Source of the DNA: an uncultured virus (IMG/VR IMGVR_UViG_3300030118_005494)
Lineage: Duplodnaviria; Heunggongvirae; Uroviricota; Caudoviricetes
DNA length: 64,000 bases
Direction: 5' to 3' (one strand)
Virus record (IMG/VR): IMGVR_UViG_3300030118_005494
Part shown: positions 12,776 through 45,876 of the stretch, one piece after another
Layout of the letters: each line of letters begins with the position of its first letter
Numbering within the stretch: position 1 is the first letter of the stretch
Translations under genes and position numbers: made by a program
The notes under the pieces: generated by a model
Databases searched by the model: none
Told to the model about the DNA's origin: nothing
The model's input: only the letters and a program-made list of their open reading frames with translations

Positions 12776-12787
12776 AGGCTGACGATC

Positions 12788-14692
12788 ATGACAACTGAAA
12801 CATTGTGGATTGGAGCATCATTAACATTCCAAAATAATAACGATATTGTTGTAGTAAATACTGGTGATGATATCCAAAGTATTGAACCTAATGATGTCTT
12901 ATTTAGTTCTAATTATGGTGAACCTGTAGAAGTAGCTTCAGCCTACATAACTGCTGATGCTTCTCCTGTTACTGTGATTAAATTGACTAAACCATGGCCC
13001 GGGGGTAGTGGTAATTTTAGTGCTACTATTGTACCTAGTGGTACAAGTATTGCTGCTGTAGCTAAAAAACTAAATACACTTCATGATACATACTCTGCGT
13101 TAGCTCAAAACGTATCTAATATCGTAACAGGAGATTCTTTAGTACAGCGTTTAAATGACGGTAGAGTTAAAGGTGCTAATGCAGAAGACAATGATGATTT
13201 AGTTGCTAAAGGTCAGTTTAACGCTCTTGCTCAAAGTTACGTAAGTGGGTATGGTGTTGGGGAGGATGCCTTACCTGCATTTACTGACTGGAACGCAATC
13301 CCCTATCCTTTTAACGGTATGTTGCGTATTCAGACAGGTGCGGTAAATGCCCCAAGTGGGCTGCCTACTAACTATTATTACAACGTAGTGTCTCTAGGAA
13401 ACTCTAACGCAAATCTTCTTGTTATGCCTATTGCTAATGAACAAGACTTATATTTGATTAGACGTTCAGATGCGACAACATTTACATTATTAGGAAATGC
13501 TTTTGGTTATATAGACCATGGTATAGGAGCGGAATTTGGAGCTGCTTGGCCTAATGGTACAGATTTAAACAACACCACTGGAGTAAGACCGGGCGTTTAT
13601 AAAATATACGCGGTTACCCCAACTGAAGCATTAGGTTTTCCTTCAGAATACACAGCAAATGCTAACGTAACCATTATCTTTAATATTGAAGCTTCCACTA
13701 GAATGACAATGATTCTTAGTGATGCTAAAACAGGTGAGACATTTGTAAGAGCTTACAATGGTAGCTGGAAACCTTACAGAAAGTTATTTGACTCTACAAA
13801 CTCCGCTAACCCGTTGGATTTTGGTTTTTGTATACCCGCTGACGCTAATGCTCCTGTTATTACAGCTACTCAAGCGGACACTACAATGCTTCCCACTAGC
13901 GCTGGAAGGGGGCAGTTAGATAATGGTATTTTTACTACATTCATTAACCTACGGGCAAATTTAAACCGTCAAGCACAGTTTCATATGGCTTATGGTGGAG
14001 GAGAACCAAGAGCATTTGCTAGGATGATGGTTGGTGATTTCCAATGGTCTGACATTATAGAATTCTATACTGACCATAACAGTGCAAACCCATTAGATTA
14101 CGGTATTGGTGGTGTAAAAACTCTTCCATCTGGAACAAGTCTATTGTCGATTGCAGAAAACGGACTTTATTATATACCTTCTGCAACTAACGCACCTTCA
14201 GCACAGACTCCTAACTGGGTTGTATTAGTTAATTCTACAAACAACGCTGCATACCGAACTGTTAAAGCGTGGGGTGTCGGTAAAATAGCGGGAAGCTACG
14301 GTGAATACACAAACACATTAGAAAATACTACTTGGGGTGGTTGGCGTCTAGTATACGATTCTGGCAACACTAATTTTAATAGTTTTTCAGCAGAATCTGC
14401 AAATGACATAATAGCATACGGCTACGCTGTAACGTCAGGTATAGTCCAGTTATTCTTCCCTCTTAATTCTAAAACTGCTCCTACTTCTTTGTCTGTCACT
14501 GGAACATTTAAACTGAAAGGAGCAGCAGATGCAGATCGGGCCACAGGAATTACAACGTTAGGTTTAAATAATCTAAGTACAAACAAACTAGGCGTATGCC
14601 GCGTATCTAGTGGTTTGACAGGTGTTGTACAGGGTGAACCCATCGTACTAGTAGCAACGGCATCTGGCGATTCTGTTACGTTTAATTTTTAA
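12788..14692 (+). CDS. Tail fibre protein with pyocin-knob-like modules
   Basis: Repeated modules ending WKPYRKLFDSTNSANPLDFG, WSDIIEFYTDHNSANPLDYG, WGGWRLVYDSGN; ENGLYY/RPGVY knob-type motifs. Confidence 0.8.
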   Translation: MTTETLWIGASLTFQNNNDIVVVNTGDDIQSIEPNDVLFSSNYGEPVEVASAYITADASPVTVIKLTKPWPGGSGNFSATIVPSGTSIAAVAKKLNTLHDTYSALAQNVSNIVTGDSLVQRLNDGRVKGANAEDNDDLVAKGQFNALAQSYVSGYGVGEDALPAFTDWNAIPYPFNGMLRIQTGAVNAPSGLPTNYYYNVVSLGNSNANLLVMPIANEQDLYLIRRSDATTFTLLGNAFGYIDHGIGAEFGAAWPNGTDLNNTTGVRPGVYKIYAVTPTEALGFPSEYTANANVTIIFNIEASTRMTMILSDAKTGETFVRAYNGSWKPYRKLFDSTNSANPLDFGFCIPADANAPVITATQADTTMLPTSAGRGQLDNGIFTTFINLRANLNRQAQFHMAYGGGEPRAFARMMVGDFQWSDIIEFYTDHNSANPLDYGIGGVKTLPSGTSLLSIAENGLYYIPSATNAPSAQTPNWVVLVNSTNNAAYRTVKAWGVGKIAGSYGEYTNTLENTTWGGWRLVYDSGNTNFNSFSAESANDIIAYGYAVTSGIVQLFFPLNSKTAPTSLSVTGTFKLKGAADADRATGITTLGLNNLSTNKLGVCRVSSGLTGVVQGEPIVLVATASGDSVTFNF

Positions 14693-29772: not shown

Positions 29773-32700
29773 ATGGCACGTTTTGTTGAAAACCCTGAAG
29801 AAGGTTCTATTAACCAGTATCCTAATACTCCTGATGTAAAACAAGCAGCGAGTGATTTACTTAAACGTGGATACTCTTCTCAGCAAATTGCAGATACTGT
29901 TGCTAATAACCCAATTAATCCTCAGTTTGGTGCAGCACTAGTAAGTGAAGCACAGACACAAGAACAAGCAAATATTCCTCAAGCTGCCCCTAAGGTAGTT
30001 GATACAACGCAACCAGAAGAAGCTCCGGCTATTAGTGCTGATGTACAAGAAACATTACCTAGTGTTGTGGCTGAAACTCAAAATAGTGTTACAGAAGCAG
30101 TACAGCAAGCTAAATCCAGTATTACACCATACACCCAAACAACTAACCGGGGTACATTGGATACTATCAATGATCTCAGTTTAGATTTGGGTAAAGGTGT
30201 AGTGAGCATTCTAGAAACTGGATACGAATTAGTAAATCTTGGTTTTAAAAATGCGCAGCAACTGACGACTAAACCTAGTGAATTTTTATATCGAATGAAG
30301 CAGGGTGAAAACCCAGTTAATATTTTACGTGACCCAAGTTTTGTTATGAACAATGACTTAGGTAACGCATCTGCTGTACGTAAACTTGCAGACAATGTGC
30401 GAGAACGTATTGATGAATTTCGCTCAGATGCAGGTAAACGCAATGTCAAAAATGCAAGTGAACTTATATCCACACATAGTCAAATATTTGATGAAGATTT
30501 GAAAACTAAAACTGATTCAAATGGGAATAACAGCTGGTGGGATATTGTTCAATCTGAATCAGTAAAAGCTGTTGATGTTATGTCAGTGTATATGGACCAC
30601 CCTGAAACACTAACAAGTACAGCTGTAGAATCTGGATTACAGTTTATTGTTCCTGCCAGTGCTGCAGGTGTATATACAAAAGTAGCTACAAAAGCAGGTA
30701 AAGAATCTGCTGAAGCAATAGCACGTAATGCTGAAAATATTAGTGCTGCTACTATTGGATTAATGGAAGGTACTAGTACTGCAGGTGATGCGGTAGAGCG
30801 TGTACGTGAAACTTCATTAGAGGATTTAGCTCGTACATCCGATTTATATAATTCACTACTAAAAGATGGTGTAAAACCTGAAGATGCCCGGGAATTGGTA
30901 GCACAAAATGTTGGGGATTCGATAGTTGCTTTAAATACTTTAGGTGCTGGTCTGATTAGTAAACTAACCGGTGCAGCAAAACTAGAAGGTAATCTATTTA
31001 CTCAGGCTGGTACCAGTCTTTTAAACTTACCAGTTAAAGCACTTATTGGTGGTGCAAAAGAAGGGCTAGAAGAAGGTGCACAATCTGGAATTGGTACACT
31101 ATCTGATAATCTGTTTACTTCGTTGGCTGCTGATCGTTCAGTTAAGTTACATGAAGGATTAGGTGAATCTGTAGGTATTGGTTTAATCACTGGTGTTACG
31201 TCTGGTACTGCCATGAGTGGAGCAGGTGCGATAGCACAAACTGCGACAGGAAGTAATCCAGTAAGTTATTTAGCTGATTTAAACAAACTTAAAAATGGTG
31301 AAGCTGCTGACGTTACAAATCCAGAGAATAGTAATTACAGCCCGTATAAAGCTATTAGTGCTTTATTGGATTCCCGGGTATTAACTGCAGAACGATTACA
31401 AGACGAAGATAAGAAAAAAGAACACTTAGACCAAGTAGGTGTTCATGTTAAGCGTTTACAGGATATTTGGCGCAATCAAATTGAACGCTATGAAAATGCT
31501 ACTCCAAAAGATAAAGCTGCAGAAGCAGAGAAACTAAATAAACTTACTGATGAGTTCCAAGAAGTAAATTCAGTATGGAAACAATATAACGAATACCTAA
31601 AAGAAGGTGATGTTGCTAAAGCTAAAGAGGTATTTGGAAACCTTGAAATTGCAGATGAAACAACAATCAACAATACCTTAAAAATATTAGGTTCTAGTCC
31701 TGACTCATTCTCAGAAGAGTACTTAAATACTTTAGCCGAAAATGAGTTATTAAACGATGATCAAGTGTCTAATATTGAAGCTATTAAAGAATACAAAGCA
31801 GCATCCAAAAAGTACCTTAGTGAACGTAAAGACACTGCTACTGTTAATGCTAACGTGGTGGTTGGTGGAGTGGGGTATGTTGGTACTCGACAATATTTAG
31901 ACGCTATTAGTAATGCTTTAAGCCGTAATGACACTACTAATGCACAGAAAAGCTATAATGACTTAGTTGCTTTTGCTGACAGACATAAAGCCAAATTAGA
32001 CTTGGCTACACGAACGTTTAATGCAGTTGTAAACAACGAACCAAATGCCAAAGCATTACAGGACGAATTCACTGAAAAGTACTCTAGTGAAGGTACTGCG
32101 TATATTGAAATCAATTCAGCCAGAATGATTGGTAATATGCGTAATGAAGTTGATGTAATGAATAAAGCATTGGAAGCTGCAGAAAGTCAGTTCAAATTAA
32201 CCGAAACTGAAATAGCTCCTGTATCCACTTCTGAGCCTGTTTTACCTGAAACTGATACTACGGAAGCTTCAAGTACTGAATCTCAGCCAGAGATTGCAGG
32301 AGAGGAAGAATTAGACGCAGGAAACATTGCAGAATCGGAGTTTGAATCTGAAATAGCAAAATCAGTAGATATAACTGAAAAGCAAGTATCAAAAACACTG
32401 AAAGATAGCAAACTACCTTTTGTAGATGTTAAGTCTACTATGCGTGAATTTAAAACTGCATTACAAGATTATGCTAGTACATTGGATATTAGTGCTAATC
32501 CAACTAAAGCAGTAAGAAAAGCAGTACGTGAATTTAAAAATGGATTCTCTGATTTTGTTAATGGAACTGTACGGAAAAATGCTCCTACTAATTTTTACCG
32601 TTTAGGTGCCAGAGCAGCGAATACAGCAATTAACAAGATTAATATCATTCCAACCCGGGTATTAGAAAGTAGTGCAGCAGTAGCTGCAAGATTTACTGCT

Positions 32701-35700
32701 AAACGAAGTACAGCATTAGCACATACCGTAAGAGACTTTTACAAAAAAGTTTTAAATGACCCTGAAAGTATTGAAGGTATCACTGCAGAAGATTTACCTG
32801 CATTACGAGTGTTTCGTAGATTTCACCGAAACATAAGTAAACATGTAGATGCTACTCTAGAAAATGTACTTAATGTAAATGGAGAAAACTTCAAAAACTT
32901 TGGGTTATCCGGGTTTGTTAATGAAAACAACTACAATGAAATAAAAGATGCTGTAACTACGAGTGCGTTTGAGTATTTGGGTAACACAGCAGGTAAGGTA
33001 ATTAATGACGATAGTGCTATAGCTGCATTGGTTGGTATTGAAGAAGAAGAAGTAACAGCAGCTCATAGAAAGGTTTATCGTGAGTTAGGGGATACATCTA
33101 GAAATGTATTTGAAACAGTAGGGGCTAATGTTCTACGTCAATTAGGTATATCACCTAAAAAAGATATGACCAAACTAGAGTATGAACGTATTCGTATTGC
33201 ATTAGGGCAAGCAGCAATTGAAGCACTAAATAAAGCTGCTATTGTTGAACGTATTTCACTTCCAAATAGTGTAGCAGTTGACTTAGGTATTGGATTACCT
33301 AATGGGGCTAGTATTGAAGAAAAAACTGATTTTATTCGGTTAGCTAGAACCAGAAAAAACAACAAACCAGAATTACATTCAACCACTAATTATTTTATTG
33401 ATAACTTTGCTTTGTATGGTGAAAGGTATAATCGTATTTTTGGTTATGAAGTAAATACACCTAGTTTTACAGTACCCAAAGTACCAGAGTTAGTTAAACG
33501 AGTAGGAACTAAAATTCCACGTAAATTACGTAATACTCTGCGCAAGCATAGTAAACGTACTTTAACTAAGAAAAGTTCATTTAACTCATTTACAAAATTA
33601 AGTGAACAAACACAAGAAAAGCTTATTGGGGTTGTCTTGGGTGATGGGTTGTCAGAGTTACACGCAGTGGAACGAGACAACATTGAAGGAAGTACTAATG
33701 TACAGTTACGCAGGGATTTAAAGAATAGCCTATTGTGGGGTGAAATTTCAGAAGGAAGGGATTTTTATGTTGGGCATGAAGTATGGTCAAACTTCCGTAT
33801 GGGTATTTCAAACAGCTATGTGAATATCCAAGGAAGTAAAGTAGCTAGAGGATTATTTGGTTACTCTGATCATAATGATGTTATTGACAGCAATGGTGCA
33901 CGACTGTATTTCAAAATGGCAGTACTGCAGTCTTTTGGAGAAAAAATCGAAAGAATGTCAGTAGCTGATATTGAAAGTAAATTCGATTCTTTCATTGCTG
34001 ACCCACAAATTGAATCTGCTATTCAAGCAGTGCAAGATATCGAATCAGGTAAATTTGACACTAAAGACGATGATGTAAAAGCAGATTATGAAAGTTTAAT
34101 TGTAGATGTGATAGAACGTGGTGGAGAAAATCTAGCTACATATCACGCTTTAGTAGCATTGACTAAATACGATGATACAAATGCTTTCCCTACTGATTTG
34201 GCTTTAGAAGTAGATGGTATTACTAACGGTGTTTTATTATCGGTATTACAGTTTGGTGGGTATGGTTCCAACTCCACTAACGTTACGTTGGACGATATTC
34301 GCAGTGGTGGAGTATTCTCTGACGGAACTACTGGATACGCTGAGTTTATTACACAAAATGGTGCTAGAGACTTTTATGAAAAATTAGCAGTTCAGTGGGA
34401 TCAAATGGTAAGTCTTGAACTGCAGGGTGTTAATGAGGATATTCAAAAAGGTTTAGCATTCTTTAATGACAGCATGGTAGACAGCCTAACTGATATTGTA
34501 ACGTCATTTGGCCGTAAGATAGCAAAAGCACCTACTATGGTGTTTGTGTATGGCTCAGGTATGCAAGGGATTATTGATGATTTTCTTGAGAATGAGCTAC
34601 TCAAGTTATATCAAAGAATGGCAAAGATAAACGATGAAAGTGATTTTGATACTTTTGTTGAACATCTTAATTTACTGGATATAGACACTTCAAATTTAAC
34701 ATATCAAAACCGTAGAGAAGTTTTGTTTTTGGATGAAGCTCAAGTTAAAGCATCTTTCCAACCTTATGCTTCAGCACTGAATAATGCGTTAACAAATACT
34801 TTTGATACGTTACTTGAACGCAGAAACACAATTACTGGACTAAGTAACATTGCTACTAGTATGTTTCAGGTAATGTATAACAGTGCTTTGGCTAAACGGA
34901 AAAAAGCGTTAGGTTTGGGTAAAAATGATCTTTTATCTGACGAAGACCAAACAAAGTTATTTGAAGATTTAGTTAAGTATTCACCTACAGTTAATACCTA
35001 CTTATCTGATGGATTATCAGATGGTATGCGCATATTTAAACTAAGCAGAGAATACACAAATTCTGTGGCTACATTGGATTTAGGTAAGAACCCTAGTCGT
35101 AAACTATACGTACAGCCTGATGGTTCATTGGCTCCTGCTAATACAACTTTCAAATCATTGAACAGTAAAATACCTACTATAGGTATTGAGTTACCCGGGG
35201 CAAGTGCAGTAGTTAAGTTAGTACACCAGTTAGATGCAGGTATCATGGAACGAGTATTACGTAACTACACTGTACTAAATGTGCATGATGCTATTTATGT
35301 TAAACCGTCTGAAGCCGCTGACGCGACACAGACTCTTAACTATGCTACTGCATTACTAAGTCAAGATTACTCTATTGTAGATGAAATCGTAGGCATGTAT
35401 GACAGGGTAGAAAAAGGATTTTTACGAATAGCAACAAAACAACAAGACAGTAAAATTCGCAAAACCAGAAAAGGAAAATTAAAGAAAGCAATCCTATCTA
35501 GGTATGCAGTACAAAATGATGTTACTCGTAATCGCTCTGAAATATTCAGTCAAGTAACTAACTGGGACCAGTATTCGTTATATGGTGGTTCTGTGAATGT
35601 GCATGATATCTCTGATTTACAAGAATTAGAGTACACCACAGAAACCGCTGACATTACAGAAGACCTAGAAACAATACTGAATAAAGTACTTTCAGTAGAC

Positions 35701-38700
35701 TCTAAGTACTTAAAATCAAGTAGTGATGTGTTTGGGTCATTTAACCCAAACGAAAGCACAACAATTACTAAAAATACAAGTGAACGTCTGCTAAATGACT
35801 TGATTAAAATGGATAACACAATATCCAGTGAGCAAGAGAATCACTTACGTACTGTACTTCGAGAAATTGTTAATGAGGTGCTTGTTCCAACACAAGTAGA
35901 AATAGAAAACCAAAGCCAAAAGAACATAGGTCAATATCATACTGAACTTAATCGCATAGACTTAAAACTAACAAACAGTTCTGTGAGTGTAGGAAACGCA
36001 GCTGCAAGCGAAGTGTACGTACACGAACTTATACACGCAGTAACTCAGTTAGCAATTGAGAATAACAAAAAACTATATGATCACTTGTATAGTATTTATG
36101 AAAGTGCACGTAAGGTCATTACTGTTGATATGTTGGCTGGACCTAACGCAACACAACAAGAAAAAGACCAAGCACAACAAATATGGAATTATGTATTTGC
36201 TAACACTGTATCTGTTAATGGTGTGAACGCTTCATTACATGAATTCATGGCTTACAGTCTTACTAATGAAAAATTCCGTAATGCACTTAAAAACGTAAAA
36301 GTAACTGGTAATACCCGAGTTAAACGTAATCGTAATACTTATCGTGGTAAGTACAATTCGTCTTTCCTACGTCAATTGGATGGTGTATTTGAGTTTGTAT
36401 GGGAAGTATTTAAAGACATCCTACAAGCTTTAGCTCAGAAAAGATTAGATGTACACAAAACTAGCGCTGATGTTGCTATGTTTGCTTTGGCTAAACACTT
36501 TGCTGAAATCGAAGTTAAAAGCACTAATAAACTTAGTCAGTATAGTAAATACATGGATAAAGCTAACAAAGCTGTAGTGGATACTATTAGCAATTTTATT
36601 GTGTCTCCATTAACAAATTTAGGTAAAAAAGTAGACTCAAACACTAGGGTTTTACGTACTGTGGCTGAAGCTGTTCGAGTTACTTCAAGAGCTAAAGATA
36701 TTACATACGCTGGTACCGCTGAAGCGATGAAAAGCCTAGCTAGTTATATGCGTCTTACTGAAGATAGTTTGGCTAGAGCTATGGCTAATGAATTATCAGG
36801 TGCTACTAAATCTCGTAGAGGTTGGAATCGTTTAATGAGATTGAGTCACCTTATTGTTGACCAAGCAAGAACCAAACAAAAAACAGAAGTACAGCGAGTC
36901 ATTAACGATAAGTTCTACACAGAATTGTCCAAAGAAGAAAAACGTGCATTCTATAATGTTGGCTTACGTTTAGACCTATCTTCGTTACTTCCTGAAACAG
37001 ATGTAACAAAAGAATTATCTGATGCTGAGTACAACAAAAGTAAAGCAGAACGTGAAAACGCTCTGAAACGCATTCTGAGACTACTTGAGGATGAAGGCTA
37101 CTTACGTGATGAAATCAACAGAATTCATTCTGAGATTAGCGCACAGACAACAGCAAAGCATGCAAAACATATTATTGAGTACTCAGATTCACTTGGATTA
37201 GATATTGCGACAGGTGCAATCAACACAGAAAACCATGCAATGAATGCTCACGTAATTGTTAACGCATACAACAATACAACTTTAAGTCCAAATGGGGATT
37301 TAGAATTACTCGAAAAGTTGTCAGATGAGTTAGCTACATTACGTGGCATAGATTATGCAGCACAAGAAGATAAAAAAGTATTTGTAGACAGCTTTTATAA
37401 AGAGTTATCAGCAGCAGAAAGAAACTATGACGATAATGGATTTATGTTTAGTTTGCAGATGCATAACTACTTTAAACGAGAGTCGTTAGATAAACTGTTT
37501 AATGGCAACAAAATTCAAGTAGCTAAAGGTTACATGCGTGAAGAAACTGATCCTTACGTAGATATGATTTTTGTTAAGAAGCATGCAATTCCTTTTATGG
37601 AAAAAGAAGGGTATGTACTTCACAACAAAGCTGCTTATGATGCTCGGGATATTAATCAAGCTCAGTATTACATTATGACCCGGGATACCTTAAGTATTGA
37701 GCCTTGGATGAAGACTACAGTGTCATTCACAGGTAAGCGTGCTATGGGTACCAGACTAGTCGATAAATACCGTCTAGATACTGATGCAGTTGTATCCGCT
37801 ATTGAAGCAAATAATGACAATGAGCAGATAAGTAAAGAGATTGCTAAACGACAACAGAAAGGTAAGTATTACCGGTCTGACGCTGCGCTACGACCTATCT
37901 TTACTCCTTCAGGTAGAATCTCAGGTTATCGTTATGTGATGAACCATGAAAGCCGTGAAAGAATACTAAAACTTAACACTGATTTTGATGCTGCATTAGG
38001 TAGATTAAGTGGAAGTATTCTGGATAAAGTTAACTCTGAAATGATTAACAGAGAAGTCGTTAAAGAAGCTAAATCACAATACGACAAAGCGTATAAAACA
38101 GATGCGACTAACTTTGTTTGGATTGGTCCTGAAGTACGTAATCCTAAACATCGTGAGCTATGGCATCAAATTCCAGATGATATGAAAAAGGCTGTTGAAG
38201 ATATCTGGGGTGTTGAACGTTTTGCAGTAAATAAAGACGACTTCACTAAGATATTTGGCTTCCGTAAATTTGCATTAGCAGATTGGGCACAAAACCAATT
38301 AGAAATTGAACAAAGTATGCGTGACTTCAAAGGTGTTATTCACGAAAGTATTTTACGTGCACTGGCTGGTCATACATCTAGACGTATTGGTCGTGGGTTA
38401 CAAGAACTGACTACAATAGCTAAAGACTCAATTGTAATTAAGACCTTTGATGTATTACTTGGTAACGTAGTAAGTAACATGATCATACTGTTAACTGAAG
38501 GCATGAATCCACTGCGAGCCGGTAAATGGGCTATAGAAGGGTGGAAGTATGCTGAACAGTACCAAGATAACCAAGCTGAAATTGTGGATTTAGAGAATGA
38601 AATTAACTCTAGTCCTAATTTAACAGCACAGGAGATACGTACTAAACAAGCTCAGATTGCACGACTAAAAAATAACATGAGAACTAACCCTGTACACGAT

Positions 38701-39294
38701 TTGGTGGAACGTGGCGTGTTCCAGACTATTGTTGAAGATTTGGATTTTGAAGACTCTAGGTACACTTATCTAAGTAAACTGCAAGATAAGGTAGCACCTG
38801 CGACAGATTATGTACCTGACGCTGTTAAGGATTTAAGTTCATTAGTGTTTATGACACATGATACTAAGATGTACAAAACATTAAGAAACTTCACACAGTT
38901 AAGTGATTTTGCGGGTAGGTATGCTTTACATAAGCATAATATGGAAATGAATAATATGAGTGTTGAAGACTCGGTAGATATGATTATGGACACTTTTGTA
39001 GACTATGATTCACCTACGCATAGAAGCATCCAGTATATGAATGATATTGGCTTATTCATGTTCACTAAATTCTTTTTAAGAATCCAAAAAGTAATATTTA
39101 GACAAGCATTAAATAAGCCAGTTAACACAGTATTACTGATGTTGTTACAGCAGCTATTGCAGGTAAACACATCCAATATATTTGGAACCTTTGCAGGTGA
39201 TCCTGATAACTGGATGAATCGGGTAATGACTCCAGTAGATAATATTGAAAATGTGGTGAACTTACATGGACTAGGTATTAACGTTTTACGATAA
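29773..39294 (+). CDS. Virion-encapsidated RNA polymerase (N4 gp50-like vRNAP)
   Basis: 3173 aa; T7-like motif A (EVDGITNG), motif B (RKIAKAPTMVFVYG), motif C (NVHDAI); no cysteine found on reading, as in N4 vRNAP. Confidence 0.95.
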   Translation: MARFVENPEEGSINQYPNTPDVKQAASDLLKRGYSSQQIADTVANNPINPQFGAALVSEAQTQEQANIPQAAPKVVDTTQPEEAPAISADVQETLPSVVAETQNSVTEAVQQAKSSITPYTQTTNRGTLDTINDLSLDLGKGVVSILETGYELVNLGFKNAQQLTTKPSEFLYRMKQGENPVNILRDPSFVMNNDLGNASAVRKLADNVRERIDEFRSDAGKRNVKNASELISTHSQIFDEDLKTKTDSNGNNSWWDIVQSESVKAVDVMSVYMDHPETLTSTAVESGLQFIVPASAAGVYTKVATKAGKESAEAIARNAENISAATIGLMEGTSTAGDAVERVRETSLEDLARTSDLYNSLLKDGVKPEDARELVAQNVGDSIVALNTLGAGLISKLTGAAKLEGNLFTQAGTSLLNLPVKALIGGAKEGLEEGAQSGIGTLSDNLFTSLAADRSVKLHEGLGESVGIGLITGVTSGTAMSGAGAIAQTATGSNPVSYLADLNKLKNGEAADVTNPENSNYSPYKAISALLDSRVLTAERLQDEDKKKEHLDQVGVHVKRLQDIWRNQIERYENATPKDKAAEAEKLNKLTDEFQEVNSVWKQYNEYLKEGDVAKAKEVFGNLEIADETTINNTLKILGSSPDSFSEEYLNTLAENELLNDDQVSNIEAIKEYKAASKKYLSERKDTATVNANVVVGGVGYVGTRQYLDAISNALSRNDTTNAQKSYNDLVAFADRHKAKLDLATRTFNAVVNNEPNAKALQDEFTEKYSSEGTAYIEINSARMIGNMRNEVDVMNKALEAAESQFKLTETEIAPVSTSEPVLPETDTTEASSTESQPEIAGEEELDAGNIAESEFESEIAKSVDITEKQVSKTLKDSKLPFVDVKSTMREFKTALQDYASTLDISANPTKAVRKAVREFKNGFSDFVNGTVRKNAPTNFYRLGARAANTAINKINIIPTRVLESSAAVAARFTAKRSTALAHTVRDFYKKVLNDPESIEGITAEDLPALRVFRRFHRNISKHVDATLENVLNVNGENFKNFGLSGFVNENNYNEIKDAVTTSAFEYLGNTAGKVINDDSAIAALVGIEEEEVTAAHRKVYRELGDTSRNVFETVGANVLRQLGISPKKDMTKLEYERIRIALGQAAIEALNKAAIVERISLPNSVAVDLGIGLPNGASIEEKTDFIRLARTRKNNKPELHSTTNYFIDNFALYGERYNRIFGYEVNTPSFTVPKVPELVKRVGTKIPRKLRNTLRKHSKRTLTKKSSFNSFTKLSEQTQEKLIGVVLGDGLSELHAVERDNIEGSTNVQLRRDLKNSLLWGEISEGRDFYVGHEVWSNFRMGISNSYVNIQGSKVARGLFGYSDHNDVIDSNGARLYFKMAVLQSFGEKIERMSVADIESKFDSFIADPQIESAIQAVQDIESGKFDTKDDDVKADYESLIVDVIERGGENLATYHALVALTKYDDTNAFPTDLALEVDGITNGVLLSVLQFGGYGSNSTNVTLDDIRSGGVFSDGTTGYAEFITQNGARDFYEKLAVQWDQMVSLELQGVNEDIQKGLAFFNDSMVDSLTDIVTSFGRKIAKAPTMVFVYGSGMQGIIDDFLENELLKLYQRMAKINDESDFDTFVEHLNLLDIDTSNLTYQNRREVLFLDEAQVKASFQPYASALNNALTNTFDTLLERRNTITGLSNIATSMFQVMYNSALAKRKKALGLGKNDLLSDEDQTKLFEDLVKYSPTVNTYLSDGLSDGMRIFKLSREYTNSVATLDLGKNPSRKLYVQPDGSLAPANTTFKSLNSKIPTIGIELPGASAVVKLVHQLDAGIMERVLRNYTVLNVHDAIYVKPSEAADATQTLNYATALLSQDYSIVDEIVGMYDRVEKGFLRIATKQQDSKIRKTRKGKLKKAILSRYAVQNDVTRNRSEIFSQVTNWDQYSLYGGSVNVHDISDLQELEYTTETADITEDLETILNKVLSVDSKYLKSSSDVFGSFNPNESTTITKNTSERLLNDLIKMDNTISSEQENHLRTVLREIVNEVLVPTQVEIENQSQKNIGQYHTELNRIDLKLTNSSVSVGNAAASEVYVHELIHAVTQLAIENNKKLYDHLYSIYESARKVITVDMLAGPNATQQEKDQAQQIWNYVFANTVSVNGVNASLHEFMAYSLTNEKFRNALKNVKVTGNTRVKRNRNTYRGKYNSSFLRQLDGVFEFVWEVFKDILQALAQKRLDVHKTSADVAMFALAKHFAEIEVKSTNKLSQYSKYMDKANKAVVDTISNFIVSPLTNLGKKVDSNTRVLRTVAEAVRVTSRAKDITYAGTAEAMKSLASYMRLTEDSLARAMANELSGATKSRRGWNRLMRLSHLIVDQARTKQKTEVQRVINDKFYTELSKEEKRAFYNVGLRLDLSSLLPETDVTKELSDAEYNKSKAERENALKRILRLLEDEGYLRDEINRIHSEISAQTTAKHAKHIIEYSDSLGLDIATGAINTENHAMNAHVIVNAYNNTTLSPNGDLELLEKLSDELATLRGIDYAAQEDKKVFVDSFYKELSAAERNYDDNGFMFSLQMHNYFKRESLDKLFNGNKIQVAKGYMREETDPYVDMIFVKKHAIPFMEKEGYVLHNKAAYDARDINQAQYYIMTRDTLSIEPWMKTTVSFTGKRAMGTRLVDKYRLDTDAVVSAIEANNDNEQISKEIAKRQQKGKYYRSDAALRPIFTPSGRISGYRYVMNHESRERILKLNTDFDAALGRLSGSILDKVNSEMINREVVKEAKSQYDKAYKTDATNFVWIGPEVRNPKHRELWHQIPDDMKKAVEDIWGVERFAVNKDDFTKIFGFRKFALADWAQNQLEIEQSMRDFKGVIHESILRALAGHTSRRIGRGLQELTTIAKDSIVIKTFDVLLGNVVSNMIILLTEGMNPLRAGKWAIEGWKYAEQYQDNQAEIVDLENEINSSPNLTAQEIRTKQAQIARLKNNMRTNPVHDLVERGVFQTIVEDLDFEDSRYTYLSKLQDKVAPATDYVPDAVKDLSSLVFMTHDTKMYKTLRNFTQLSDFAGRYALHKHNMEMNNMSVEDSVDMIMDTFVDYDSPTHRSIQYMNDIGLFMFTKFFLRIQKVIFRQALNKPVNTVLLMLLQQLLQVNTSNIFGTFAGDPDNWMNRVMTPVDNIENVVNLHGLGINVLR

Positions 39295-40087: not shown

Positions 40088-40456
40088 TTAAATCTTTTTA
40101 TTTTGTTGGCGTAGCTGGTTTGCTGCTAGTTCATTACTGAGTAGGCATCGACTATGGATTTTGTTGGCCTTGTCTTCATCTATAAGTGGAAGTTGTATAA
40201 ATCCCATCTTAACGCCATTTAAAATAAACTCGGATCTCTCGTCGCATAGCAAATCTAATTCATTCCGTTTACGCTCTGCTGTTTCAACTTGCTCTTGTAG
40301 CTTTAATATAACTTCCTTTTGTTTTTGAATTCTTAAATCTAAGCCTTCAAGATGATTAGTTAATTCTTGCACTAAAGCAGAAATTAATAACATCTGATCA
40401 TTATGTGGGTATGTTTTGCGAAGCTTTTGAATTTCGGATAGTAGTCGTTCTGACAT
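40088..40456 (-). CDS. Coiled-coil hypothetical protein
   Basis: 122-aa ORF with AAGGAG RBS. Confidence 0.7.
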   Translation of the reverse strand: MSERLLSEIQKLRKTYPHNDQMLLISALVQELTNHLEGLDLRIQKQKEVILKLQEQVETAERKRNELDLLCDERSEFILNGVKMGFIQLPLIDEDKANKIHSRCLLSNELAANQLRQQNKKI

Positions 40457-40467
40457 AGTAACTCCTT

Positions 40468-40524
40468 AAAGTAAAACAGCCCCTACAATCAACGACAGAC
40501 CAATGTAATTAATGTAAGGGGCTG
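40468..40524 (-). terminator. Large-loop hairpin plus U-tract (terminator or sRNA 3' end)
   Basis: cagcccctaca (40477-40487) / tgtaaggggctg (40513-40524), 25-nt loop, followed on the - strand by TTTTACTTT. Confidence 0.55.
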
Positions 40525-40568
40525 AGTATCCAAATAGTTTGAAGGTTCGAAAAGAGCTATTTGAATTA

Positions 40569-40718
40569 GGTCAAGGTGGGTGGATTCGAACCACACTCCA
40601 TTAAAATATACTTAGCTATTTGCATTTCACTAAATAAACTTTAGTGTTTTCTTCCCATACCATTTACTTGGCACTAGCTCTGATGCACCAGTAACTAATG
40701 TTGCAGGGAACCACCTCG
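40569..40718 (-). ncRNA. tRNA-like structured RNA (~150 nt, non-canonical)
   Basis: 5' CGAGGTG pairs with 3' CACCTTG followed by A-CC; T-arm GTGG-TTCGAAT-CCAC at canonical spacing; enlarged interior with several hairpins. Confidence 0.6.
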
Positions 40719-40980
40719 GTAGAAATAAGTGTAGGCTTTCCACCTACTTGCTGGGTTGAGGATCAGGATGTGACCACCATTATCTAGTATTACAATCTCT
40801 GTGTATCAAGTACAAGAATCCCATTACTGGGTAATGTAAGTTTCATAGCTCAACTAGATTTTGCTCCACTTACACCATTTTGTCATAACCAGACTTTTTG
40901 TAAAACAGTCTTAACCATACAGGGATTCGGGCTGTTAAACTCACTTCACAGAAGATACTAAAATTAGACTAGGAGAAGAA

Positions 40981-41172
40981 CTATTTTGTAGTATTAGACT
41001 TATTGGAAAAGATATCTTGTAGTGCTCCTAGAATAGCAATAATAACTACTCCACCTATTACAGCAAAACCTGCTACATATGAAAAAGCAGCTACCAGTAA
41101 ACCAATACCGATAGCTGCTACTATGCAGAGAATTACTATAAATGCACTAAATAGTGTTTTTAGAATTCCCAT
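40981..41172 (-). CDS. Small two-TM membrane protein
   Basis: 63 aa, almost entirely hydrophobic. Confidence 0.65.
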   Translation of the reverse strand: MGILKTLFSAFIVILCIVAAIGIGLLVAAFSYVAGFAVIGGVVIIAILGALQDIFSNKSNTTK

Positions 41173-41185
41173 GGTGGAAGATCAC

Positions 41186-41629
41186 TTACTTTTTTTGAAA
41201 AAGACGTTTACGTTTAGGCTTAGTATCAACTTCTTCTTCTTCTTCGGTTTCCTCTTCCTCAGAATCTAGATCTTCTTCTTCCTCTTCAGGTTCTTCTTCC
41301 TCGGATTCTTCCTCTTCTTCAGCTTCTTGTTCTGCTTTACGAGCAGCTTCCATTTCAGCTTTAGTTCGACGCTTACGGCGCTTCGGTTTAGGTGCTTCCT
41401 CTTCCTCTGCTTCATCGTCAGCAGAGTTATCTACTTCTTCAGCCTTTGGTGTAGATTTCAGAGTAGAACGCTTAGAAAGCGATTTGGAGGGCTTTTCTGC
41501 TTCTGGTTCAATTGCAGCAGATTTAGATTCTAAACCTAACACCATAACTTCAGTAATTTGTGCTGATTCTACATTTAGAGCAGCAGATACGATGTTAATA
41601 AGTTCTTCTTTATTTAATACAATTTTCAT
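41186..41629 (-). CDS. Low-complexity acidic/basic protein
   Basis: MKIVLNKEEL N-terminus, KPKRRKRRTKAEMEAAR basic patch, poly-Glu tract, KRLFQKK end. Confidence 0.7.
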   Translation of the reverse strand: MKIVLNKEELINIVSAALNVESAQITEVMVLGLESKSAAIEPEAEKPSKSLSKRSTLKSTPKAEEVDNSADDEAEEEEAPKPKRRKRRTKAEMEAARKAEQEAEEEEESEEEEPEEEEEDLDSEEEETEEEEEVDTKPKRKRLFQKK

Positions 41630-42994: not shown

Positions 42995-43738
42995 TTAATC
43001 CTCTTCATAGAATTCAATTAGTCGTTCAAGAACATGGCAGATATCGTTATCAATAAATAACTCGGAATCGTCCCACATATCAATAGGGAAACGATTACGG
43101 TATTGAAGTGTATCTTTGGTTTTGTCTGTTTGGAAAACATACTTAGATTTAAGTCGTTTTTCTTTTTCAGTGATATTTAAGTAATCATTCTCTACCCCTT
43201 TAAGTACATCAGTAGATACTTTGCGGGCTAGTACAATATTATTGAAGTATGACTCTACACCATTATTCATGATGGAGCCTTTAACTTTAACAATTGTTTT
43301 GCTATCACCTGTAGCATTGTCAATCACATCAGCTACGTGTGCAAGAATGATGATATTTTTTGTTGAACGTGCAGCATAGTCTTGAATAAGTGACTTAAAG
43401 AACTGTGCATACGCACCCCAAGCTTGTTGGGTATTCTTAGAATCTACAACGTACAATGATTCGTACTGGTCCATTAAGAAAGTCAGAGTATCAATAATGA
43501 TTGTATGACACTCATCATCTTCTTCAGCAGCATCGAAGTAATCAAAAATATCTTCAGGGTCAGTTACTGAAGCGCACTGAAATTTATTTTTAAATGGTGG
43601 TTTCTTATTAGCTTCACAGCTTAAATAATACACCCCTTCTTGCTCCGGTAAGTTTCTTAGACTGGTAGATTTACCAGCATCAGACTCACCAATAACAAGT
43701 ACAATATTGTTATTACCTTCTTGTACAATTTCAGACAT
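42995..43738 (-). CDS. AAA/Sak4-like ATPase (N4 gp44-like)
   Basis: GESDAGKS Walker A, IIIDTLTFLMD Walker B, VKGS..NNGVESYF. Confidence 0.85.
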   Translation of the reverse strand: MSEIVQEGNNNIVLVIGESDAGKSTSLRNLPEQEGVYYLSCEANKKPPFKNKFQCASVTDPEDIFDYFDAAEEDDECHTIIIDTLTFLMDQYESLYVVDSKNTQQAWGAYAQFFKSLIQDYAARSTKNIIILAHVADVIDNATGDSKTIVKVKGSIMNNGVESYFNNIVLARKVSTDVLKGVENDYLNITEKEKRLKSKYVFQTDKTKDTLQYRNRFPIDMWDDSELFIDNDICHVLERLIEFYEED

Positions 43739-45876
43739 TATTTACCCTTTAGTTTTTTGCGTACAGTTGTCATGATAGTTCCATCAATTTCAGAACGTGA
43801 CAGTTTATTCGCTAGTTTATCATTAAGCTCATACACAGCATTACGGACAGTTGTTTCATCATTATCCGCATCAACAAGAACTAAGGCATATTTAAGTAAT
43901 TGTTGGTTTCTGTTTCCATCGCCAGTATTACTAATAAACCATCGCTCAAGTGCATCAAAGTTAGCATATCGAGCATTATCTTTTTTGAGTTCTTCGTTTT
44001 TGGCTGTGTCTGGAATGAACATGAGTACGTTTAATAACTCACCATCATTGTCACACCACTCACCATCATGTGTTGCCCATTTACGAGAACGTTGACCTGT
44101 TTTAGTGTCTATCTCGATTGGCAGCCACTCAAAGATGTTATGCATGAATGTTTTATACTCGTCCATATCCATTTTAAGAATATGTGATATAGGGAGTATC
44201 ATGCGATATCTGTGATGATCTTCTGTGTGTCGTTTTGTTGTATGTAAGTGGTAGGTGTACTGTTCAAATAGCTTTTGGGCTACAGGAATAGGAGTACCAT
44301 CATCGATATCAAGTACAATACAGTTAAACCCGGGTAATGCATTATCGTCATGACGATACCCGTTTTTAAAGCTATGGTTACACCAGTGCAAACCATCAGC
44401 AGTAGTCAAATCAGAAAGTTGATCAAAGTCTGCTTTAACTGATTCATACCCTTCCGTAATATCATCACTGTAAGATAAGTACAATTCAGATAGCTTGGTT
44501 TTTTCTAGCTTCTCACCAGAAAGGAATTGAATACCATTGTGGTAGCTTCGACGTATTACTAAATTACGTCTCCAACCATCAGCAATAGCTAAATCTTCAA
44601 GCATTTTACGCTGTTGGGTACCACCTTTATAGAATGGTAAATCTTCTTCTAGGTCTGGTTGTGTTAGTGGGGTAGGAGAAGCAACAATGTAGTTTGCTAA
44701 TTTAACGTATGGACGATCACGAGTCATAATCCGGTTAAATGCTTCACCAGATTCTTCAACTAACTTAATAGCTGATTTCAGGTGTTCTTCAGTGATTTCT
44801 ATATCGCCATCCACGTAAGCATATGCACCAGCTATTTTGATAGCTTTAAAGTACCTGTGAGCCATTTCAGCACGTTTAATTTCATCATGCTCAGGCATCT
44901 TAGCTGCACGTTTTTCACAGAATAATTGATACTCAAGCCAAAGTAGAATTACATCTACTTCCATTGTCATTTGATGATCAAAGTAATCAACATCAGCTAA
45001 CTCTGCAATATGTGAAGCTAGGTTATCAATATACTCGTTTGTGTTAGTGCTTGTTTGGATATCGTAAAGCTGTTGTGGGGTGATATTTAAGTTTTTAGCA
45101 CCCGGGTCAGAATAACCAAATACAGAACGTCTAGCATATCCTGTTTCCATAAATGAATTGAATTCATCCTCTACTTTACCCCCATCAAAAACTTTAGCAG
45201 GAGTACCGTACAACATAGCATTAGCTGGTGTTCTACCATCTATTTCTTCGTTACGTTGACTATCATTGGTATTCTTTATCAGTTTGGTTTTAGTTTTACC
45301 GATATCATACAACTCAAGATATAAAGTAATTACTTCACCATTACCTAATAGGTTAGAGCCAATTTCATCAATCTCAAGGTTCATAGAACCTGCACCAGCC
45401 ATTAGTAGTTGATGTCTAAGTTGTTTTACAGCAGGTACAGTACCTGAATCAAAAGAGAATAATAATGGACCAAGCTTTTCAAATTCAGCAATAGCTCGTT
45501 CCAGTTCAATAGAATCATCACTCTCTTTCTTTTTGGCACGTTGAATAGCCAGCTTTGCTAAACTTTTCTCTGCAACAGCTGGATAAACTTCATTCAAAAA
45601 TTTATCTCTGAATGGCTTTAATACCTGTTCTTCCATGATTGCAGTTGAATGGCCTTTACCTGATCCTGATGTTGCTAAATTAATAGCATACATGTTGATA
45701 GGTAATACCCCGCGAACATGTGTATTAACACTGGCTCGCATCATAGAAGCTACTTTACAGAAGTTATATGCTACAAGTACTCGGAAAAACAAAGGACTAT
45801 TGTTTTGTGTTTTTGTACAGAGAATTTTAACAAGTTCTTCTGAAGTTTCGTTATACTCTAGATTGGATAAATCCAT
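43738..45876 (-). CDS. DNA primase / replication protein (N4 gp43-like)
   Basis: ATSGSGKG P-loop, IVLDIDDG, HTTKRH and C-terminal GNRNQQLLKYA primase-C motif. Confidence 0.88.
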   Translation of the reverse strand: MDLSNLEYNETSEELVKILCTKTQNNSPLFFRVLVAYNFCKVASMMRASVNTHVRGVLPINMYAINLATSGSGKGHSTAIMEEQVLKPFRDKFLNEVYPAVAEKSLAKLAIQRAKKKESDDSIELERAIAEFEKLGPLLFSFDSGTVPAVKQLRHQLLMAGAGSMNLEIDEIGSNLLGNGEVITLYLELYDIGKTKTKLIKNTNDSQRNEEIDGRTPANAMLYGTPAKVFDGGKVEDEFNSFMETGYARRSVFGYSDPGAKNLNITPQQLYDIQTSTNTNEYIDNLASHIAELADVDYFDHQMTMEVDVILLWLEYQLFCEKRAAKMPEHDEIKRAEMAHRYFKAIKIAGAYAYVDGDIEITEEHLKSAIKLVEESGEAFNRIMTRDRPYVKLANYIVASPTPLTQPDLEEDLPFYKGGTQQRKMLEDLAIADGWRRNLVIRRSYHNGIQFLSGEKLEKTKLSELYLSYSDDITEGYESVKADFDQLSDLTTADGLHWCNHSFKNGYRHDDNALPGFNCIVLDIDDGTPIPVAQKLFEQYTYHLHTTKRHTEDHHRYRMILPISHILKMDMDEYKTFMHNIFEWLPIEIDTKTGQRSRKWATHDGEWCDNDGELLNVLMFIPDTAKNEELKKDNARYANFDALERWFISNTGDGNRNQQLLKYALVLVDADNDETTVRNAVYELNDKLANKLSRSEIDGTIMTTVRKKLKGK

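What the first reader, a model, noticed from the sequence alone, without database searches (positions are those of the whole stretch)
40567..40720. ~150-nt tRNA-mimic RNA with acceptor stem and T-arm but an enlarged, non-tRNA interior
Seen (- strand): 5' CGAGGTG (40718-40712) pairs with CACCTTG (40578-40572), then discriminator A and CC(T); the T-loop TTCGAAT sits in GTGG/CCAC at canonical distance. The ~115-nt interior has no standard D or anticodon arm but holds stems GTGCCA/TGGTAT, CACTAAA/TTTAGTG and AGCTA/TAGCT. Known: acceptor plus T-arm is what RNase P, CCA-adding enzyme and EF-Tu recognise; T4 makes stable tRNA-like species I/II RNAs of similar size and unclear function. Inference: a processed stable RNA, possibly a decoy for anticodon nucleases or other tRNA-targeting defences.
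Basis: partly seen in the sequence, partly recalled or inferred. Interest (0 to 1): 0.72.

Follow-up and report, generated by a model that had tools for sequence, protein, structure and literature searches.

The report
Non-decoding tRNA-shaped RNA gene in phages
This marine phage carries a gene for a 150-base RNA that keeps a transfer RNA's two ends and elbow but cannot read codons, and the same RNA is conserved in unrelated marine phages, so it probably has a job outside protein synthesis that is still unknown.

Summary
On the minus strand, 40718-40568, lies a ~150-nt RNA gene. It has a 7-bp acceptor stem, a T arm, an N73-CC tail and a non-tRNA interior. ARAGORN and Rfam call nothing there.

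It is conserved. The only blastn matches in GenBank phages cover exactly this element, in Alteromonas phages PT15-A5 and AD45-P1. Two complete ~310-kb jumbo phage genomes carry a 57%-identical copy.

Across the five sequences, 85.7% of cells in my 45-pair structure are standard pairs, against 38-47% in slid controls. Sixteen pairs change on both sides.

The fold is a cloverleaf-like four-way junction:
- The D position holds a 5-bp helix bearing two hairpins.
- The anticodon position holds a 14-17-bp rod.
- The loops GUGCAU and GAAAUGCAAAUA are invariant and complementary over 5 nt. The second resembles a tRNA-Cys anticodon loop.

It is not a tRNA or a tmRNA. My model gives T4 RNAC only tRNA-level scores and T5 RNA1/RNA2 none, though all share the architecture and tRNA-cluster setting.

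Best reading, about 0.4: a stable tRNA mimic matured by tRNA-processing enzymes and acting as a decoy or binder. Expression and function are untested.

The parts
40568..40718 (-). whole tRNA-shaped RNA gene (151 nt counted to the base after N73-CC)
   Evidence: model R1, 146 bits; blastn conservation limited to this span
40712..40718 (-). acceptor stem, 5' strand (CGAGGUG); C1 and G4 invariant
   Evidence: 7 of 7 pairs standard in 5 of 5 sequences, 3 pairs changed on both sides
40572..40578 (-). acceptor stem, 3' strand (CACCUUG)
40568..40571 (-). tail: discriminator A, then C-C-U; N73-CC is present in 5 of 5 sequences, and A76 is encoded in 3 of 5
40706..40710 (-). D-position helix, 5' strand (UUCCC)
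   Evidence: helix 2, 92% of cells paired, 2 pairs changed on both sides
40652..40656 (-). D-position helix, 3' strand (GGGAA)
40675..40697 (-). hairpin A; invariant loop GUGCAU at 40688-40683
   Evidence: helix 3, 4 pairs changed on both sides
40659..40672 (-). hairpin B (GCCAA / UUGGU core, 3-4-nt loop of variable sequence)
   Evidence: forms in each of the 5 sequences on its own, but no compensatory change (helix 4)
40599..40646 (-). long arm at the anticodon position (14-17 bp with bulges); invariant 12-nt loop GAAAUGCAAAUA at 40628-40617
   Evidence: helices 5 and 6: 4 pairs changed on both sides; loop coordinates
40579..40595 (-). T arm (stem GUGG/CCAC plus a U.C first pair; T loop UUCGAAU at 40590-40584)
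   Evidence: helix 7, 3 pairs changed on both sides
40731..40747 (-). small terminator-like hairpin 12 nt upstream of the RNA's first base
40473..40524 (-). strong terminator-like hairpin plus U run, about 45 nt downstream of the RNA's tail; the next ORF's AAGGAG and ATG follow
   Evidence: (trailer folds to -28 kcal/mol, z -4.5)

Best explanation
WHAT IT IS (about 0.9). This is a gene for a ~150-nt non-decoding, tRNA-shaped RNA. The phage is an N4-like marine phage.

The fold is a cloverleaf-like four-way junction:
- a 7-bp acceptor stem ending in N73-CC;
- a T arm with a 7-nt T loop;
- at the D position, a 5-bp helix that opens into two hairpins, A and B;
- at the anticodon position, a 14-17-bp rod capped by an invariant 12-nt loop.

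HOW IT WORKS (inferred, about 0.4 for the whole chain).
1. It is transcribed with its neighbours.
2. Host RNase P cuts before C1.
3. The 3' end is trimmed to N73-CC and completed by the CCA-adding enzyme.
4. The tRNA frame makes it stable and gives it the surfaces by which tRNA-binding proteins recognise tRNA.
5. It cannot decode. It acts in trans as a tRNA mimic through its two invariant loops. GUGCAU and GAAAUGCAAAUA are complementary over UGCAU/AUGCA and could kiss. The second contains AUGCAAAU, a near copy of a tRNA-Cys anticodon loop.
6. The most likely use is as a decoy or binder for a host factor that acts on tRNA, such as a tRNA-cleaving or tRNA-modifying defence effector.

Shown: sequence, fold, conservation, covariation, and distribution once per genome in three phage lineages.
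Inferred: processing, stability, trans action and the target.
For: Conservation limited to the element
- All 4 GenBank phage records that match window 40300-41000 match only the RNA.
- Pairwise identity to the window is 73% for PT15-A5, 69% for AD45-P1 and 58% for the jumbo copies.

Structure
- Each of the 5 sequences folded alone gives the same architecture.
- On the 5-sequence alignment, 85.7% of 223 cells are standard pairs, against 38-47% with partners slid by 1-3 columns.
- 16 of 45 pairs change on both sides, against 3-7 when slid.
- 0 of 500 shuffles reach the covariation score.
- Caveat: the structure was derived from these same sequences, and only about 4 are independent.
- 59 of 90 paired columns vary, against 27 of 64 unpaired. 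Both loops are invariant.

tRNA-processing signature
- C1-G72 and N73-C-C are present in 5 of 5 sequences.
- The gene lies in or beside tRNA genes in AD45-P1, PT15-A5 and the jumbo phages.

Selection on this RNA in particular
- It is the only tRNA-like gene in the 64-kb window.
- In PT15-A5 it is intact while the adjacent tRNA-Met homologue lacks its anticodon arm.
- There is one copy per genome in 4 of 4 complete or GenBank genomes searched.

Loop resemblance
- The jumbo phage's own tRNA-Cys has UUGCAAAU at positions 32-39. The RNA's loop has AUGCAAAU.

Context from papers
- tRNAs, including their 3' tails and anticodon arms, are frequent targets of bacterial anti-phage systems, and phage tRNAs can neutralise them. 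I saw only the listing and abstract starts: PMC12851939, PMC11464382, PMC10264068, PMC12445682.
Against: - No evidence of a discrete ~150-nt transcript. The metatranscriptome data are contigs and say nothing about ends or local level at 40568-40718.
- No partner protein is known. The two flanking ORFs tested have no relative in the other four genomes.
- A decoy must compete with a very large tRNA pool, and nothing here shows high abundance or high affinity.
- The loop-loop pairing cannot be tested by covariation, because both loops never vary.
- The tRNA-Cys resemblance is a 7-8-mer. By my rough estimate it is expected by chance at the percent level.
- The T loop of the Alteromonas-phage copies is GUCGAUA, with G at the position of T54. 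The discriminator varies (A, A, U, U, C). The G-U pair sits at 2:71 in three copies and 3:70 in two. No single synthetase identity set is therefore kept.
- Only 5 sequences are known.
Confidence: 0.4

Rival explanations
1. Processing handle. The RNA is mainly a cutting and stabilising signal. Its tRNA frame recruits RNase P and 3' trimming enzymes to separate and end neighbouring transcripts, as tRNA punctuation does. The RNA itself has no trans function.
For: In the window it lies between a terminator-like hairpin that ends a heavily represented upstream region and a strong terminator. It sits among tRNAs in the jumbo phages and AD45-P1. Earlier notes of this scan proposed this reading for similar RNAs.
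Against: A cutting signal needs only the acceptor and T arm. Here 115 interior nucleotides are kept, with two invariant loops and compensated helices, across phages whose flanking genes are unrelated. In PT15-A5 it is the first element after a promoter-like block, with nothing upstream to release.
Confidence: 0.2
2. Base-pairing regulator in a tRNA scaffold. The invariant loops pair with another RNA. For example, loop A (which contains UGC) could pair with the anticodon of host tRNA-Cys, or the 12-nt loop with an mRNA. The tRNA frame only provides maturation and stability.
For: Two invariant single-stranded loops of 6 and 12 nt. The UGC / GCA complementarity.
Against: The complement of the 12-nt loop is not enriched in the phage's own 64 kb. 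With up to 2 mismatches there are 11 matches against 14.7 expected, and the only exact one is the gene itself. Host targets could not be searched because the host is unknown.
Confidence: 0.12
3. Chargeable tRNA-like RNA that enters the ribosome or another aminoacyl-tRNA-using pathway. This would be a minimal tmRNA-like rescue RNA or an amino-acid donor.
For: Acceptor stem, T arm and N73-CC are kept. Related N4-like contigs carry a permuted tmRNA downstream of the primase (L340, L356, sequence). The jumbo copies have G3:U70.
Against: ARAGORN, which finds those tmRNAs, finds none here. No reading frame with a stop is shared: the jumbo copies have no stop in any frame after the loop (by eye on the sequences). 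G-U is at 2:71 in three copies. The discriminator varies. The arm is about 5 bp longer than a tRNA's anticodon-D stack. Rfam tmRNA and tRNA models do not match.
Confidence: 0.08
4. Decaying tRNA gene with insertions, or a chance resemblance.
For: Phage tRNA clusters do contain degenerate tRNAs, such as the anticodon-arm-less tRNA-Met homologue in PT15-A5.
Against: The interior is the best-conserved part. Helices are maintained by compensatory change between copies only 57% identical.
Confidence: 0.03

Closest known systems
Phage T4 species 1 RNA (RNAC, rnaC; NC_000866 70908-71046, 139 nt)
   Same: A stable-RNA gene in a phage tRNA cluster of about the same size. It has a canonical T arm next to an acceptor-like stem. 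Its minimum-energy fold has a large arm at the D position and a non-anticodon hairpin before the T arm. Its function is still unknown (passages read in PMC3014915, and PMC12685909).
   Different: There is no specific homology. Model R1 gives it 26.4 bits, all from the acceptor and T arm, and ordinary tRNAs reach 24.3 bits. T4 RNAC lacks the GUGCAU and GAAAUGCAAAUA loops, and its acceptor has two U.U mismatches.
Phage T5 RNA1 and RNA2, annotated 'tRNA-like stable RNA with unknown functions' (NC_005859 30501-30644 and 32959-33083)
   Same: Sizes of 144 and 125 nt, located inside the tRNA gene region, annotated as tRNA-like, function unknown.
   Different: R1 does not match RNA1 at E<=10. It matches only 15 nt of the T-loop region of RNA2, at 6.9 bits.
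tmRNA, including the permuted two-piece form found in related N4-like contigs
   Same: A tRNA-like acceptor and T arm without an anticodon. A phage-borne example lies downstream of the primase gene (ARAGORN tmRNA* in L340 and L356).
   Different: The RNA here has a four-way rather than three-way junction, no tag reading frame with a stop in all copies, no conserved G3:U70, and a length of 150 nt rather than ~350. ARAGORN and Rfam do not call it.
Bacterial Y RNA-like YrlA (tRNA-mimicking module), recalled from Chen et al. 2014, not read here
   Same: A non-coding RNA that imitates the tRNA elbow and acceptor, also reported in phages (recalled).
   Different: In YrlA the RNA ends form the Ro-binding stem and the tRNA-like part is internal (recalled). 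Here the ends form the acceptor with a free N73-CC tail. No Rfam match of any kind.

Membership tests
canonical tRNA (Rfam RF00005; ARAGORN) | cloverleaf with a 3-4-bp D stem and small D loop, and a 5-bp anticodon stem with a 7-nt loop | tested here: not met
   ARAGORN finds 0 genes in the window. There is no RF00005 match at E<=10 on 40400-40900, nor on the PT15-A5 and jumbo copies at E<=0.01. The D position holds a three-way junction, and the anticodon position a 14-17-bp arm with a 12-nt loop.
canonical tRNA (Rfam RF00005; ARAGORN) | 7-bp acceptor stem, T arm with a 7-nt T loop directly abutting it, discriminator plus CC(A) | tested here: met
   (5 of 5 sequences)
tmRNA | tag reading frame with resume codon and in-frame stop | tested here: not met
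   Reading on from GCA or from after AAAUAGC gives a stop after 0-9 codons in three copies. The two jumbo copies have no stop in any frame before the 3' end (by eye on the sequences). ARAGORN finds none, though it finds tmRNA* in L340 and L356.
tmRNA | G3:U70 alanine identity pair in the acceptor stem | tested here: not met
   G-U is at 2:71 in the window, PT15-A5 and AD45-P1, and at 3:70 only in the two jumbo copies.
T4 RNAC (species 1 RNA) family | sequence and structure homology to T4 rnaC | tested here: not met
   R1 scores rnaC at 26.4 bits. Ordinary tRNAs in the same searches score up to 24.3 bits. This was tested one way only, with my model against T4. No model of rnaC was built.
T4 RNAC (species 1 RNA) family | stable ~140-nt RNA encoded in a phage tRNA cluster with a tRNA-like 3' part | tested here: inconclusive
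   Setting and architecture are met. Stability and discrete size are not testable with contig-only RNA data.
T4 RNAC (species 1 RNA) family | 5' end made by RNase P (recalled from the 1970s T4 literature, not read here) | not testable with these tools
   Only the substrate features (acceptor/T-arm stack, N73-CC) can be seen.
T5 RNA1 / RNA2 tRNA-like stable RNAs | sequence and structure homology | tested here: not met
   No R1 match to RNA1. A 6.9-bit partial match to RNA2.

The most novel reading that the evidence does not exclude
The RNA is a tRNA mimic that carries both halves of a decoding event. One loop copies the tRNA-Cys anticodon loop (AUGCAAAU). The other contains the matching Cys codon (UGC). 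They are held so that they pair with each other over 5 bp. To an anticodon-sensing nuclease, a synthetase or modification enzyme, or the ribosomal decoding centre, it would look like a tRNA already engaged with its codon. It would act as a high-affinity trap or plug. If so, phages from three lineages share a purpose-built inhibitor of a tRNA-directed host process.
Probability: 0.1. Interest if true: 0.85.

Novelty: new variant of a known kind. Interest (0 to 1): 0.55.

Why it matters
Stable tRNA-like RNAs have been known in phages T4 and T5 for about fifty years without a function. This family is a cleaner case to work on.
- It is small, with sharply defined invariant loops.
- It is kept in an N4-like phage that has no tRNA genes in the 64 kb seen.
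- It is present in two cultured phage-host pairs: Alteromonas phages PT15-A5 and AD45-P1.

tRNAs are now recognised as a main battleground between bacterial immunity and phages (listing and abstract starts). A conserved non-decoding tRNA look-alike is therefore a natural candidate counter-measure. If a target were found, it could explain the whole class.

Tried and rejected
Searches for more members
- Exact-pattern scans found only the same five sequences. I ran 5 on viral contigs, 1 on metagenome contigs and 1 on one genome per prokaryote species.
- Everything else returned was a chance or coding match (scripts; model searches).
- These scans need exact conserved motifs, so divergent members would be missed.

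Model R1 on N4-like relatives
- I searched 36 of the 38 loci found by the primase, leaving out L330 and L331, which are fragments of the window's own contig. There were no members, only tRNAs, tmRNA pieces and L329's truncated copy.
- blastn of the jumbo copy against GenBank phages gave no match.

Own assembly
- It is not held. The nearest record, G001, is a 29-kb fragment without the RNA.

RNA-seq
- All four runs laid are contigs. They show neither ends, strand nor local level for 40568-40718.

Neighbouring proteins
- The flanking ORFs 40088-40456 and 41186-41629 have no relatives in the four other genomes. The tool warns that an empty answer shows nothing.
- PHROGs finds nothing for the six small ORFs nearest the RNA.

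Readings rejected
- 'It is the phage's tRNA-Cys': the jumbo phage has a normal tRNA-Cys(GCA) elsewhere.
- 'Antisense targets in the phage': not enriched.
- tmRNA reading: see the membership test.

Earlier findings of this scan
- Nothing turned up by place or by sequence.

Full report
**1. What is in the sequence**

On the minus strand:
- CGAGGUG (40718-40712) pairs with CACCUUG (40578-40572). This gives seven pairs, one of them G-U.
- The tail that follows is A-C-C-U.
- The T loop UUCGAAU (40590-40584) is closed by GUGG/CCAC, directly next to the acceptor 3' strand.
- The 115 nt between have no D arm or anticodon arm.

ARAGORN finds no tRNA or tmRNA gene anywhere in the 64-kb window. Rfam finds nothing at gathering score. 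At E<=10 on 40400-40900 it finds nothing tRNA-related. No ORF of 40 aa or more covers 40457-40980 on either strand.

**2. The phage**

- The window carries a 3173-aa ORF (29773-39294) and a primase (43738-45876; PHROG 2135, E 1e-296).
- The best GenBank relatives of the primase are N4-like Vibrio phages of ~78 kb, at 51-52% identity.
- A 73.5-kb metagenome contig holds the same RNA sequence (L327).
- The RNA lies in a 524-nt gap between small unknown ORFs, about 3 kb downstream of the primase.

**3. It is conserved, and only it**

- blastn of 40300-41000 against 50,697 phage records matched 4 records (3 phages: Alteromonas phages PT15-A5, AD45-P1 and AD45-P2). The matches cover only 40561-40731 or 40609-40731, in stretches annotated as nothing.
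- A 14-mer scan and later pattern scans added two complete jumbo phage genomes of 306.5 and 310.7 kb with terminal repeats.
- Identity to the window is 73%, 69% and 58% respectively. The two jumbo copies are 98% alike.
- Each of the four genomes that could be searched whole has exactly one copy.
- Seven pattern scans of viral, metagenome and prokaryote collections gave no further member. Neither did a covariance model run over 36 of the 38 loci of N4-like relatives.
- So the family, as far as exact-motif scans can see, has five sequences in three phage lineages. All are marine where the source is known.

**4. The fold**

Each sequence folded on its own gives the same architecture (window -42.6 kcal/mol, z -2.77):
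- **Acceptor:** 7 bp.
- **D position:** one nucleotide after the acceptor, a 5-bp helix (UUCCC/GGGAA; UUCUC/GAGAA in the Alteromonas phages; a 7-bp version shifted by one register in the jumbo phages). It opens into two hairpins.
  - Hairpin A has 8-12 bp and the invariant loop GUGCAU.
  - Hairpin B has the core GCCAA/UUGGU and a 3-4-nt loop that is GUAA, GCCA, GAAA or GUA.
- **Linker:** A-rich.
- **Anticodon position:** a 14-17-bp arm with bulges, closed by G-C and Y-G pairs around the invariant 12-nt loop GAAAUGCAAAUA.
- **T arm**, then the acceptor 3' strand.

Counting my 45-pair structure on the model-fitted alignment:

| Measure | Observed | Control |
|---|---|---|
| Cells that are standard pairs | 85.7% of 223 | 38-47% (partners slid 1-3 columns) |
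| Pairs changed on both sides | 16 of 45 | 3-7 (slid) |
| Shuffles reaching the covariation score | 0 of 500 | - |

- The acceptor is paired in 100% of cells, with 3 compensated pairs. The T stem has 3, hairpin A has 4, the D-position helix has 2 and the long arm has 4.
- Hairpin B has none and rests on its presence in every sequence.
- Caveats: the structure came from these sequences, only about four are independent, and two helices change register between clades, so the alignment understates pairing there.
- Stems vary more than loops: 59 of 90 paired columns vary, against 27 of 64 unpaired.

**5. Features that bear on mechanism**

- C1-G72, G4-C69 and N73-C-C are invariant. A76 is encoded in 3 of 5 copies. 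From established knowledge of bacterial tRNA maturation (recalled, not tested here), an acceptor/T-arm stack with a 3' RCC is the RNase P substrate, and the CCA-adding enzyme completes the end.
- The discriminator (A, A, U, U, C) and the position of the G-U pair (2:71 or 3:70) are not kept. The Alteromonas-phage T loop is GUCGAUA. No one synthetase identity set is therefore preserved.
- UGCAU of loop A is complementary to AUGCA of the 12-nt loop. Both loops are invariant, so covariation cannot test this contact.
- The 12-nt loop contains AUGCAAAU. The jumbo phage's own tRNA-Cys(GCA) has UUGCAAAU at positions 32-39. Loop A contains the Cys codon UGC. I rate this resemblance as suggestive only.

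**6. Setting**

- *Window.* A small terminator-like hairpin (40747-40731) lies 12 nt upstream. A strong terminator-like hairpin (40524-40477, then a U run) lies ~45 nt downstream.
- *AD45-P1.* The RNA lies in a row of unusual elements: a 71-nt and a 143-nt tRNA-like RNA and a 102-nt hairpin RNA upstream, and a normal tRNA-Met downstream.
- *PT15-A5.* The same promoter-like block is followed directly by this RNA. Next comes a 62-nt tRNA-Met homologue that has lost its anticodon arm.
- *Jumbo phage.* The RNA sits inside a 23-tRNA region.
- The two flanking proteins tested are not shared between carriers.

**7. Expression**

- Four marine metatranscriptome runs from one study hold the whole 701-nt stretch. 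Two runs from another study hold a small share of it.
- When laid, all four chosen runs are contigs, so they cannot show ends, strand or local level at the RNA.
- They do show that the stretch just upstream is heavily represented. Short contigs over 40761-40851 have depths of 9,650-13,567, and the one over 40822-41267 has 5,528. The 16-kb contig that contains the RNA has a mean depth of 559.
- The only contigs in the second study cover 40749-40919. That region has no notable fold (z 0.03). It is probably the 3' part of the upstream mRNA.

**8. What it is not**

- **Not a tRNA or tmRNA.** See the membership tests.
- **Not the phage's tRNA-Cys.** The jumbo phage has a normal one.
- **Not a relic.** The interior is conserved and compensated.
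- **Not shown to be a homologue of T4 RNAC or T5 RNA1/RNA2.** R1 gives T4 rnaC 26.4 bits, from the acceptor and T arm alone. Ordinary tRNAs reach 24.3 bits, and the T5 RNAs do not match.

It does share their kind: a ~125-150-nt RNA gene inside a phage tRNA cluster, with a tRNA frame and a non-decoding interior, of unknown function.
- T4: passages in PMC3014915 and PMC12685909.
- T5: record annotation.
- T4 rnaC and AD45-P1's 143-nt element fold with the same plan: a large arm at the D position and a short non-anticodon hairpin before the T arm.
- Earlier notes of this scan list several further anticodon-less tRNA-shaped phage RNAs in other genomes. I treat them as leads only.

**9. Explanation and odds**

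- That this is a functional, structured, tRNA-shaped RNA gene: about 0.9.
- That it is matured by the tRNA-processing enzymes and acts in trans as a tRNA mimic, most likely a decoy or binder for a host factor that acts on tRNA: about 0.4.
- Rivals:
  - a pure processing handle (0.2);
  - a base-pairing regulator in a tRNA scaffold (0.12);
  - a chargeable RNA used by the ribosome or another pathway (0.08);
  - relic or chance (0.03).
- The complement of the 12-nt loop is not enriched in the phage's own 64 kb.

**10. Novelty**

- Rfam 15 has no family that matches.
- The GenBank records of PT15-A5 and AD45-P1 annotate nothing there.
- My four paper searches turned up no description of it. That does not show it is undescribed. 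The supplementary tables of PMC10690425 were not opened.
- I file it as a new variant of the known kind 'phage tRNA-like stable RNA'.

Noticed in passing
window 40749-40919 (and up to about 41300): The stretch just upstream of the RNA is heavily represented in marine metatranscriptome contigs. Depths are 5,500-13,500, against a mean of 559 for the 16-kb contig that holds the RNA. It is the only part assembled in two runs of a second study. It has no notable fold (z 0.03). It is probably the 3' end of the mRNA of the small ORFs 40981-41172 and 41186-41629, ending at the hairpin 40747-40731.
   Followed up: partly
L329 (IMGVR_UViG_3300030117_005509) 13080-13449: This contig is identical to the window up to the middle of the hairpin A loop (GGTGCATCA) and then continues with unrelated, coding-looking sequence. 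It is probably an assembly chimera or a recombinant that cuts the RNA gene.
   Followed up: partly
L356 15181-15572 and L340 14994-15392: Two N4-like viral contigs (primase 48% identical to the window's) carry a permuted two-piece tmRNA gene. The tags are ANDDYYESNVLPMAA and ANDSDFYGDNVLPMAA. In L340 the gene lies next to tRNAs (none called in L356) and, in both, downstream of the primase.
   Followed up: partly
L002 (AD45-P1) 1622-1764, 1776-1877, 1889-1959, minus strand: The AD45-P1 cluster holds three more unannotated structured RNAs upstream of this one. The first is a 143-nt tRNA-like RNA (acceptor CCCCAA/UUGGGG, T arm, ACCA) with a very large D-position arm. The second is a 102-nt hairpin RNA. 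The third is a 71-nt tRNA-like RNA that weakly matches Rfam mascRNA-menRNA (24.2 bits).
   Followed up: partly
L001 (PT15-A5) 1439-1500, minus strand: A 62-nt homologue of AD45-P1's tRNA-Met that lacks the anticodon arm. It still scores 43.1 bits on the Rfam tRNA model, and ARAGORN does not call it.
   Followed up: partly
L376 10502-10598 (= L461 11301-11397), minus strand: The jumbo phage encodes a tRNA with anticodon UUA, a predicted ochre (UAA) suppressor, among 23 tRNAs. This hints at stop-codon reassignment or read-through in this phage.
   Followed up: no
L376 6362-6437, minus strand: Directly upstream of the jumbo copy lies an uncalled tRNA-like gene. It has acceptor GUAGGUG/CACCUGC, a CCA anticodon-like loop and an encoded GCCA end. 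Rfam gives only a weak tRNA-Sec match (32.3 bits).
   Followed up: partly
L002 (AD45-P1) 798-1196: A 133-aa protein annotated with COG0317 (guanosine polyphosphate pyrophosphohydrolase/synthetase) lies about 180 nt downstream of the AD45-P1 tRNA-Met, at the end of the cluster that holds this RNA. It is possibly a small alarmone hydrolase.
   Followed up: no
L460 15839-15959, minus strand: A 121-nt stretch of the jumbo phage scores 17.4 bits with R1. It may be another enlarged tRNA-like RNA.
   Followed up: no
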